Of a DNA stretch of 64,000 nt, positions 60,203 through 62,799 are shown one piece after another. The translations under genes and the position numbers were made by a program. This stretch comes from Mobula hypostoma (taxonomy: Eukaryota): positions 107,014,001 to 107,078,000 of the forward strand of contig NC_086107.1 in NCBI RefSeq assembly GCF_963921235.1, read 5' to 3'. Numbering within the stretch: the first letter of the stretch is position 1; every line of letters starts with the position of its first letter. The notes beneath the pieces were generated by a model that was not told the DNA's origin, made no database searches, and worked only from the letters and a program-made list of their open reading frames with translations.

Positions 60203-60685
60203 CTTCTCCGTGGATTGTCACCTTGTCGCGGTGGAGAAGCTTGTGTGATCCTGTGATCCCGAGAACGATGCCGTCTGGAGTTATGCTCCTGGTAGGGTCA
60301 CCCATGGCGGTAAGGTCGAGGGTGAGGTCCCTGACAAAGAACAATCCAACCAAGACCTCAACGGTGGAACAGGTGGACGAAGTTACTTCGAACTCAACGG
60401 CTGTGAAGGCGGATGAAGGCTGCAACAAATCCATCAGCTCCAATCGTCGTGGTTTCCATGCCATTGGAATCACCTGGTTGATTTGTGAAGTATCGTGTGC
60501 TTCTTGGAGTGCAACATCAAGTACACGTTAAACAAATACACGCACAGGCGTCTTCACTCTGTGGGCCACTTAAGAACTTTCAAAGGCAAGACTGGACTCA
60601 CAAGCCACTTGAGAGCCCGTAAGTAGATCAACAGAACGAAGACCATCATCCTCGACCTCAAGGGATGGCCACGACGACGACAACA
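60203..60685 (+). mobile_element. RTE (BovB/Expander-like 5' end) non-autonomous element
   Basis: caccttgtcg.ggtgg...gcttg...ctcctggtagggtcacccatgg...ctgacaaa head recalled from RTE-clade 5' UTRs; (acg)n tail. Confidence 0.65.
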
Positions 60686-61442: not shown

Positions 61443-61601
61443 TTCACTGCAGTACTGTGCAGAAGTCTTAGGCACCCTAGCTATAAGGGTCTGTGCCTAA
61501 GACTTTTGCACGGTTCCCTGCTGTGGTAATTTTTTAACATTTTTATTTAGAGATACAGCGTGGTAAAGGCCCTTCTGGCCCAACAATCCTGGGCCACCCA
61601 A

Positions 61602-62158
61602 TTACACCTCTGTGACTGATTGCACCCCTGTGACCAATGACACCCTTGTGACTGATTACACCCCTGCGACCGATTACACCCCTGCGACCGATTACACCCC
61701 TGTGACCGATTACATCCCTGTGACTGATTACACCCCTGTGACCGATTACATCCCTGTAACTAATGACACCCCTGTGACCGATTACACCCCTGTGACCAAT
61801 GACACCCCTGTGACTGATTACACCTGTGACCAGTTACACCCCATGTGACTGATTACACCCCTGTGACCGATTACATCCCTGTGACCAATGACACCCCTGT
61901 GACTGATTACACCTGTGACCAGTTACACCCCATGTGACTGATTACACCCCTGTGACCGATTACACCCCTGTGACCAATGACACCCCTGTGACCGATTACA
62001 CCCCTGTGACCGATTACACCTGTGACCAATGACACCCCTGTGACTGATTACACCCCTGTGACCGATTACACCCCTGTGACCAATGACACCCCTGTGACCA
62101 ATGACACCCCATGTGACCGATTATGTGACCATGTGACCATGTGACCATGTGACCATGT
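61602..62158. repeat. 18-bp minisatellite (acacccctgtgaccgatt) inside a minus-strand tRNA-SINE (~61535-62305)
   Basis: About 29 units followed by (atgtgacc)n; SINE head and tail flank it. Confidence 0.95.
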
Positions 62159-62799
62159 AACCTAGTAACCCATAGGTCTTTGGACTGTGGGAGGAAACCC
62201 ACACAGTCACGGCGAGAACGTACAGACTCTTTACCAACAGCGGCAGATCCGAACCTGAGTTGCTGGTGCTGTAGTAGTGTTATACTAACCCCTACGCCAG
62301 CGCGCTGCCTCCAACGAAATGGCATATAAAGCAAACCTCGGTAGATGTGACAATAATAAACCAATTTACCGGTCTGCCACTTTAAATGTTTGATCCTTTG
62401 TGCTGAGCATACCTCAAGCTCCAGCAGACCGAAGATGTCACAGAGAAACAGACTCAGCAATGACCCTCGCAAGCCGATAAATTCTTCATATATTTTAAAG
62501 GGGTAGCATCTTTTTCTTCCAAATACAAGTGAAAATTGTTCCAACCAACTCCGTTCTGACACTTAGCATGATAGAGTCATGCAACAGAGAAACAGACCCT
62601 TCAATCCATCGAAACTATGCTGACCACCTAGCATCTATGCACTAATCCTATTATTTTTCCCTACATTCCTATCAGCTCATCCAAAAATGTGTCACACACT
62701 TACACACGAGGGGAATTTACAGTGGTTGCTTTATCTTCCAACCTGCACATCTTTGGGATATGGGAGAAGATCGGAGCATCCAGGGTCACAGAGAGAAGC

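What the first reader, a model, noticed from the sequence alone, without database searches (positions are those of the whole stretch)
60203..60347. HDV/CPEB3-like double-pseudoknot fold with a flipped P1.1 at the 5' end of an RTE-related element
Seen: P1 cttctcc (60203-60209)/ggagaag (60233-60239); P2 ggattgt (60212-60218)/acaatcc (60341-60347), extendable by C60219-G60339 with one bulge; P3 acc/ggt closing a 7-nt loop UUGUCGC (60223-60229); a ~90-nt P4 domain; and C60335-AAA immediately before P2'. The loop keeps the U..G reverse-wobble positions. P1.1 would be G60225-C60240 plus U-U, which is the single-pair CPEB3 arrangement with the pair flipped. Known: HDV-like ribozymes process the 5' ends of several non-LTR clades, including some RTEs. 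Deviations: +1 is C rather than G, and loop ttgtc could instead pair with gacaa (60333-60337), a mutually exclusive fold. Inference: either a non-canonical HDV-like ribozyme that standard descriptors would miss, or a distinct conserved RTE 5' RNA structure. The fold begins at the apparent element boundary, as expected if self-cleavage defines the 5' end.
Basis: partly seen in the sequence, partly recalled or inferred. Interest (0 to 1): 0.72.

Follow-up and report, generated by a model that had tools for sequence, protein, structure and literature searches.

The report
Flipped-core HDV-like ribozyme heading RTE retrotransposon
Over a thousand copies of a jumping gene in this animal genome begin at exactly the first base of an RNA predicted to fold like the hepatitis-delta ribozyme, a shape supported by matched base changes in relatives; it likely cuts itself free of longer transcripts, as a near-identical core does in trypanosome elements, but cutting is untested here.

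Summary
The helices are real and at the stated coordinates. 60203 is the exact first base of a ~480-nt non-coding RTE derivative (at least 1,152 copies) and of its 3.9-kb autonomous parent; target-site duplications abut it. Across divergent relatives the named fold is 99% paired, with 15 of 19 pairs showing two-sided changes (0/500 shuffles). P1.1 is G-C in one clade and A-U in the other, which is one switch on the tree. The rival UUGUC/GACAA pairing has no covariation support, though it is thermodynamically competitive in this lineage and would bury the predicted catalytic C60335. The 'deviations' are largely precedented. The trypanosome L1Tc ribozyme cleaves before C1, has a one-pair P1.1 and has the same core register (ACC +18-20, G37). 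Compact versions occur in phage-like contigs. No extra-G cap signature is seen at copy junctions. Verdict: an L1Tc-type HDV-like ribozyme with a large conserved P4 domain, missed by Rfam; cleavage is inferred (~0.75). The main rival is a DPE-type internal promoter at +25-28. The scan has noted this element type before, in other genomes and in this one.

The parts
60203..60685 (+). Whole element: bipartite non-coding RTE derivative (5' UTR part joined to the 3' end of the LINE). The 3' end is approximate, and no target-site duplication was found for this copy.
60203..60347 (+). Predicted HDV-like ribozyme; predicted cut between 60202 and 60203
60203..60209 (+). P1 5' strand; +1 is C, paired with G60239
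   Evidence: 6 of 7 pairs with two-sided changes
60212..60219 (+). P2 5' strand plus extension base C60219
   Evidence: 8 of 8 pairs with two-sided changes; C-G to U-A at the extension in L117
60220..60232 (+). P3 (invariant) and L3. U60223 and G60228 are the predicted reverse-wobble pair; G60225 is the P1.1 base; +25 to +28 (60227-30) is the position of the L1Tc DPE.
60233..60241 (+). P1 3' strand, then P1.1 partner C60240 and U60241 (predicted U-U with U60224)
   Evidence: AU 9, GC 6, other 1; GC 6, AU 5
60242..60334 (+). Large multi-helix P4 domain with a conserved sequence motif. The basal helix is 60247-51/60326-30; this copy has an A-C mismatch at 60248, where 51 of 52 copies have G.
60335..60338 (+). 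J4/2, C-N-A-A; C60335 is the predicted general-acid cytosine
   Evidence: C in 15 of 16 rows, 11 of 11 rows, 51 of 52 copies
60339..60347 (+). P2 3' strand with a one-base bulge
60348..60571 (+). Rest of the 5' UTR part, shared with the autonomous LINE
   Evidence: query 14-382 matches at 90-95% identity in the full-length copies
60572..60685 (+). 3' part: last codons of the LINE ORF (60573-60626, end of the zinc finger, read by eye), 3' UTR and (GAC)n tail

Best explanation
Bases 60203-60347 are the 5' end of an RTE-type LINE and of its short non-coding derivative, and are predicted to fold as an L1Tc-type HDV-like double pseudoknot that likely cuts itself just before C60203, which would set the element's first base. 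Shown: the boundary, the parent LINE, and covariation of P1, P2, P4 and (one event) P1.1. Inferred: a transcript starting upstream folds P1/P3 first, then P1.1, P4 and P2; C60335 acts as general acid with Mg2+ held at the U60223-G60228 wobble; a 5'-OH RNA starting at +1 is released and copied by the LINE protein through the shared 3' tail, so the ribozyme is carried into every full-length copy. This particular copy keeps the whole core but has one P4 mismatch and a competing fold, so it may cut slowly.
For: Boundary: 32 of 39 hits start at +1; 27 of 40 detected TSDs (in 68 copies examined) abut +1 directly, 4 overlap it by 1-2 nt and 9 leave 1-3 extra nt. Full-length parents (~3.9 kb, APE-RT-zinc finger) start at the same base. 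Covariation: alignment A1 (16 rows) is 95% paired with 12 of 19 pairs two-sided; A2 (11 rows) is 99% paired with 15 of 19; both 0/500 shuffles, and slid registers pair only 39-48%. A third family in this genome changes P1 and P2 on both sides. In viral contigs, 9 of 56 core-pattern matches (7 distinct) complete P1, P2 and C-N-A-A with short P4. Precedent: L1TcRz cleaves before C1 with a one-pair P1.1 (PMC3185411) in the same register (PMC4748587; SIDER sequences). Fast HDV-like ribozymes with one Watson-Crick plus one U-U or C-U pair in P1.1 exist (PMC13635239). G at -1 occurs in 5 of 64 copies, against about 33% of SVA insertions, attributed to cap copying (PMC3287187).
Against: There is no cleavage assay. 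Rfam finds no match. The P1.1 G-C/A-U covariation is a single switch on the tree, with one A-C exception. P3 never varies, so it gives no covariation. Nearest-neighbour folding of this copy prefers the UUGUC/GACAA fold (pair probability 0.83-0.86; -50.6 against about -49.8 kcal/mol before any pseudoknot penalty), although the model cannot form pseudoknots. The core overlaps the position of the L1Tc DPE promoter element, which could alone fix a 5' end. One metagenome family (L113, L116, L123, L124, L139, L150) has broken P1 ends, and its copies share upstream sequence.
Confidence: 0.75

Rival explanations
1. The sharp 5' end is set by an internal Pol II promoter (a DPE-type element at +25 to +28, as in Pr77). 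The conserved pseudoknot is non-catalytic, or catalysis is incidental, and it serves to protect the end, bind the LINE protein or start translation.
For: The L1Tc DPE CGTG lies at +25-28 and is essential for promoter activity (PMC4748587). The same letters sit at the same place in nearly all relatives; this family has T or C at +27 (27 and 24 of 52 copies). P3/L3 sequence is invariant, as a DNA element would be.
Against: There is no excess G at the junction (5 of 64, below flank G content of 19.5%, P=0.009), though it is not known whether RTE reverse transcriptase copies a cap. The C-N-A-A strand is conserved exactly where catalysis needs it. The same core occurs in phage-like contigs, where a Pol II DPE has no role. 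In L1Tc the two functions coexist, so a promoter does not exclude cleavage.
Confidence: 0.17
2. The functional fold is the nested one, in which loop UUGUC pairs with GACAA inside P2, with no double pseudoknot.
For: It is the minimum-energy nested fold of this copy and of L032, and a similar fold is predicted for L128.
Against: Only 71% of cells are paired, with 0 two-sided changes, and 500/500 shuffles do as well; two of the five pairs are broken in 9-10 of 16 rows. It is incompatible with P1, which covaries. It is best read as a lineage-specific misfold.
Confidence: 0.04
3. The fold is a relic: ancestrally a ribozyme, but inactive in this lineage, with copies made from RNAs whose ends are set otherwise.
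For: This lineage has the weakest P2 and a near-isoenergetic competing fold; the A-U clade members L120 and L133 favour the ribozyme-compatible fold by about 8-9 kcal/mol on the same rough sum.
Against: All core positions are kept in this young family (52 copies). An older subfamily and a third family keep the same fold and the same start.
Confidence: 0.04

Closest known systems
L1TcRz / Pr77 hallmark of trypanosomatid L1Tc, NARTc, ingi-clade and SIDER elements (PMC3185411: passages and Discussion part 1; PMC4035085: passages, section 5, supplement passages; PMC4748587: passages)
   Same: Located at the exact 5' end of a LINE and its internally deleted derivative; C at +1; P1 closed by G37; ACC at +18-20; 7-nt loop U-Y-R-N-C-G-U; one-pair P1.1 with a purine on the loop side (A with U in the SIDER sequences seen); C-(C/U)-A-A before P2'; CGTG at +25-28.
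   Different: Host clade is RTE-type in an animal, not Ingi. Length is 145 nt against 77 nt, owing to a ~93-nt multi-helix P4 with conserved sequence. Loop position 2 is U (U-U next to P1.1); P1.1 is G-C in this lineage. Activity is untested. The P1.1 partner base of L1Tc itself was not seen directly.
HDV-like ribozymes at RTE 5' ends (Ruminski et al. 2011; not held; known only through citations in PMC5786205 and PMC3774820, and from recall)
   Same: Same clade, same position, same proposed role.
   Different: I could not see which RTE families or cores that paper covers, so overlap with this family is unknown. Rfam's drz-agam, CPEB3 and HDV models do not match here.
CPEB3 ribozyme, and the C. 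briggsae and Ackermannviridae HDV-like ribozymes (PMC9901934, PMC13635239: passages)
   Same: Nested double pseudoknot; P1.1 of one Watson-Crick pair plus U-U or C-U; U-G reverse wobble; catalytic C in J4/2.
   Different: By recall these have a purine at +1 and a pyrimidine on the loop side of P1.1. Here both pairs are inverted.
Bipartite ORF-less RTE derivatives such as Bov-A, RTE-N and RTESINE (Kojima 2018, PMC5786205, parts 1-3 of 5 read)
   Same: 5' UTR plus 3' end of an RTE LINE made by internal deletion; keeps the extreme 5' end, which the paper links to a possible ribozyme.
   Different: That paper gives no fold in the parts read; here the fold is resolved by covariation.

Membership tests
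HDV-like ribozyme | Nested double pseudoknot P1 (7 bp), P2, P3 (3 bp), P1.1, P4 | tested here: met
   P3 is invariant and so uninformative; P1.1 rests on one switch
HDV-like ribozyme | Catalytic C first in J4/2, followed by N-A-A and P2' | tested here: met
   C in 15/16, 11/11 and 51/52
HDV-like ribozyme | U and G of the L3 reverse wobble | tested here: met
   U invariant; G in 15/16 rows; 45/52 copies, the rest A, consistent with CpG decay
HDV-like ribozyme (canonical descriptor) | Purine at +1 (G-U or G-C) and pyrimidine-purine P1.1 (recalled descriptor) | tested here: not met
   +1 pair is C-G in 9/11, G-U in 1, unpaired in 1; P1.1 is G-C or A-U in 11/11. Active L1TcRz also has C1, so this excludes only the canonical subtype.
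HDV-like ribozyme | Mg2+-dependent self-cleavage 5' of P1, lost in the C-to-U mutant | not testable with these tools
   needs a bench assay
L1TcRz/Pr77-type core | C1-G37, ACC/GGU P3 at +18-20/+28-30, one-pair P1.1, start of the element | tested here: met
L1TcRz/Pr77-type core | Internal promoter activity of the same DNA | not testable with these tools
   only the position of the motif was compared
Rfam HDV, CPEB3, drz-agam families | Covariance-model score above threshold | tested here: not met
   no such hit at E<=10 in the window stretch or at E<=1 in six homolog loci
RTE-clade LINE (parent) | Single APE-RT ORF, no RNase H, short microsatellite tail, TSDs | tested here: met
   Pfam Exo_endo_phos, RVT_1 and a weak zf-C2H2 in three ORF pieces of one copy; (GAC)n tail and 8-16 bp TSDs. 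The ORF is broken in the copies seen, so 'single ORF' is read across frames.
RTE-clade LINE (parent) | RT phylogeny groups with RTE rather than Vingi/Ingi | tested here: inconclusive
   No reference tree was built. 6 of the 120 best endonuclease homologs are named 'craniofacial development protein 2(-like)', a name that by recall marks RTE/BovB-type endonucleases; most are unnamed.
Bipartite non-autonomous LINE | Only the 5' and 3' ends of a parent LINE | tested here: met
   60203-60571 matches the parent 5' UTR and 60572-60685 the parent 3' end

The most novel reading that the evidence does not exclude
An active, overlooked subfamily of HDV-like ribozymes in which the cleavage-site pair and the P1.1 pair are inverted together (C1-G37, R-Y P1.1). 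It is shared by animal RTE LINEs, trypanosome L1Tc/ingi elements and phage-like genomes, and is invisible to Rfam. In vertebrate RTEs it carries a large conserved P4 domain with its own job (LINE-protein binding or translation start). In this lineage the G on the loop side can also pair with the catalytic C, giving a built-in off state that limits cutting of host transcripts carrying one of more than 1,000 copies.
Probability: 0.35. Interest if true: 0.65.

Novelty: new member of a known kind. Interest (0 to 1): 0.42.

Why it matters
If it cleaves, one vertebrate-sized genome holds over a thousand potential self-cleavage sites that current RNA family models miss, able to cut host transcripts that read through them in the sense direction. 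It would explain why RTE derivatives keep a base-exact 5' end. It gives a natural series (G-C and A-U P1.1, 5-24-nt and ~95-nt P4) for testing which pairs at the HDV cleavage site matter. It also suggests that the L1Tc-type core is not confined to trypanosomes. The arrangement itself, a ribozyme at a LINE 5' end, is known.

Tried and rejected
Rfam scans found nothing relevant. Single-strand folding gave no signal (z -0.65) and cannot model pseudoknots. The P4-motif scan of viral contigs gave 0 hits. The core-pattern scan of prokaryote genomes gave 104 loci; one scored 13 of 14 with a 6-nt linker and was treated as chance. The 19 own-genome copies with A at 60225 mostly keep C at 60240 (15 of 19), so they are read as post-insertion mutations, uninformative for covariation. 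Of the 41 metagenome loci, 12 were set aside as chance bacterial matches, 5 as a different variant, 5 as truncated (L115, L121, L134, L144, L149) and 5 as near-copies of L139 with a deletion; 14 entered A1. In A1 three rows have P1 off by one column (3-nt J1/2) and one is clipped at P2', so A2 (11 rows with a 2-nt J1/2, chosen for diversity) is the cleaner P1 test. Sequencing runs: no RNA holder listed. Four guessed-RNA contig sets cover only 60203 to ~60685, and several contigs run on into unrelated flanks at 60203; contigs cannot show RNA ends, so this is no evidence on cleavage. Ruminski 2011 is not held, and its figures and supplements may already include this family. Searches listed no paper describing this fold in vertebrate RTEs, but the library lacks most subscription journals. 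The sequence look-up in earlier findings was blank.

Full report
Observation. Rfam has no ribozyme match, and the strand is not unusually stable (z -0.65). An HDV-type descriptor (7-bp P1 and P2, 3-bp P3, U...CG loop, paired P1.1, C-N-A-A) hits only this site on the two strands of the window and never in 150 shuffles. It was written knowing the site, so the weight lies on the comparative evidence below.

The element. The region is a high-copy repeat: 2,442 first-look candidates with 40 scored, and 1,152 exact matches to a gapped pattern against 0 for the reversed control. Of 39 non-self best hits, 32 start exactly at 60203 and the rest within 6 bases. Thirty copies taken in chromosome order with an anchor inside the fold show unrelated flanks up to -1 and conservation from +1. 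Most copies are about 420 nt and end in (GAC)n. A target-site duplication was found in 40 of 68 copies examined: 27 abut +1, 4 overlap it and 9 leave 1-3 extra bases. The window copy has none detectable.

The parent LINE. The copy's 3' part carries the last codons of a LINE ORF. Searching with it found 5'-truncated LINE copies. Of 10 stretches fetched around longer copies, 7 carry the same 5' end in sense orientation ahead of APE and RT coding sequence, about 3.9 kb in all. Pfam gives Exo_endo_phos, RVT_1 and a weak zinc finger. Six of the 120 best endonuclease homologs are named 'craniofacial development protein 2(-like)', which by my recall marks RTE/BovB-type endonucleases; no RT tree was built. 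The window copy is therefore a bipartite non-autonomous derivative, a known class (Kojima 2018, PMC5786205, parts 1-3 of 5).

Covariation. To avoid selecting on the pairs under test, I scanned metagenomes with a motif from the P4 domain only. This gave 41 loci, of which 24 are homologs, 5 a different variant and 12 apparent chance hits. In A1 (window, one old-subfamily copy, 14 metagenome rows) the named fold is 95% paired, with 12 of 19 pairs changed on both sides; 0/500 shuffles reach this, and slid registers pair 41-48%. A2 (11 rows with a 2-nt J1/2, adding a third family from this genome and one viral-contig row) is 99% paired with 15 of 19 two-sided: P1 6 of 7, P2 8 of 8 including the bulge-side extension, P1.1 G-C 6 and A-U 5. 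The shuffle control ignores relatedness. On a tree built from P4 columns the A-U rows form one clade (98/95), so P1.1 covariation is a single event, with one A-C exception. P3 never varies. The P4 domain has its own covarying multi-helix fold. An older subfamily and a third family in this genome keep the fold and the same start with changed P1 and P2. The rival UUGUC/GACAA pairing is 71% paired with no two-sided change, and 500/500 shuffles do as well.

Results against. In this lineage the rival pairing is perfect and dominates pseudoknot-free folding (probability 0.83-0.86). A rough sum puts it level with the ribozyme fold (-50.6 against -49.8 kcal/mol, before any pseudoknot penalty), whereas two A-U clade members favour the ribozyme fold by 8-9 kcal/mol. 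It would pair G60225 with the predicted catalytic C60335. This copy also has an A-C mismatch in the P4 base. One metagenome family has broken P1 ends and shared upstream sequence.

Independent occurrences. Core-pattern scans of viral contigs returned compact versions. Nine of 56 matches (7 distinct) complete P1, P2 and C-N-A-A with a 5-24-nt P4, all with C at +1 and G-C at P1.1. The pattern fixed P3/L3, the last G of P1' and a pyrimidine after it, but not the P1 5' strand, P2 or J4/2. In L203 two copies lie between short ORFs, with no tRNA gene nearby.

Comparison with what is known. [quoted passage not shown] It cleaves before C1, closes P1 at G37 and has a one-pair P1.1 (PMC3185411, passages and Discussion part 1). 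Its CCACC lies at 16-20, TCAA at 21-24 and CGTG at +25-28 (PMC4748587, passages), the same register as here. SIDER sequences in a supplement show the same core with A opposite U (PMC4035085), and that paper calls earlier descriptors too restrictive. Fast ribozymes with one Watson-Crick plus one U-U or C-U pair in P1.1 have been solved (PMC13635239, passages). RTE ribozymes are reported by Ruminski 2011, which is not held and was seen only as cited; its supplements could already list this family. Another RTE, Perere-3, uses twister variants at its 5' end (PMC8501958, passages). Searches listed no description of this fold in vertebrate RTEs.

Mechanism and rival. The most likely reading (0.75) is that upstream-initiated RNA folds this pseudoknot and cuts before C60203 by the HDV mechanism, fixing the first base of both the LINE and its derivative. 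The catalytic steps are inferred by analogy. The main rival is a DPE-type internal promoter at the same place, shown for Pr77. A capped template should leave extra G at junctions (about 33% of SVA insertions, PMC3287187, passages). Here G is at -1 in 5 of 64 copies, below the flank content. That leans against capped starts, but it is indirect, since cap copying by RTE enzymes is unknown and target preference shapes -1. Both functions may coexist, as in L1Tc.

Earlier scan notes (AI notes, unchecked) describe the same kind of element in other genomes and in this one. They are not independent support. I took from one of them the wording that the two pairs are inverted together; my rows fit this in 9 of 11, with one G-U/G-C exception and one unpaired row.

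Verdict: a real, well-supported fold and a new member of a known kind, with activity untested. Interest 0.42.

Noticed in passing
L203, L205, L206, L362, L365, L374, L378, L392, L394, L395, L401 (IMG/VR contigs): Compact (about 60-80 nt) versions of the same flipped-core fold in phage-like contigs, often two or three per contig between short ORFs. In L203 each is preceded by a similar hairpin; no tRNA gene lies near the four loci tested.
   Followed up: partly
L331, L339, L343, L344, L346 (G000): A third, older short retroelement family in this genome with the same fold but different P1 and P2 and a different body; its parent LINE was not sought.
   Followed up: partly
L081-L110 (G000): An older subfamily (76-80% identity to the L042 query) with the same start and a changed P2.
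   Followed up: partly
L119, L125, L146-L148 (metagenome contigs): Share the P4 motif but have long C and G runs where P3/L3/P1' should be, possibly with a longer J1/2; either a variant or sequencing error in homopolymers.
   Followed up: no
L113, L116, L123, L124, L139, L150 (metagenome contigs): A family preceded by a (GT)n tract, with broken P1 ends and, in most copies, loss of the P1.1 partner; it looks like a disabled ribozyme inside a composite repeat.
   Followed up: no
L317:2165-2557: A full-length LINE copy whose first ~110 bases are inverted relative to the rest, resembling a twin-priming product.
   Followed up: no
L167, L182 (G000): Intermediate internally deleted copies (about 2.2-2.4 kb) that keep the 5' UTR, part of the ORF and the 3' end.
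   Followed up: partly
window 61600-62160: A tandem array of a ~17-nt unit followed by a 7-nt repeat, apparently inside another short repeat.
   Followed up: no
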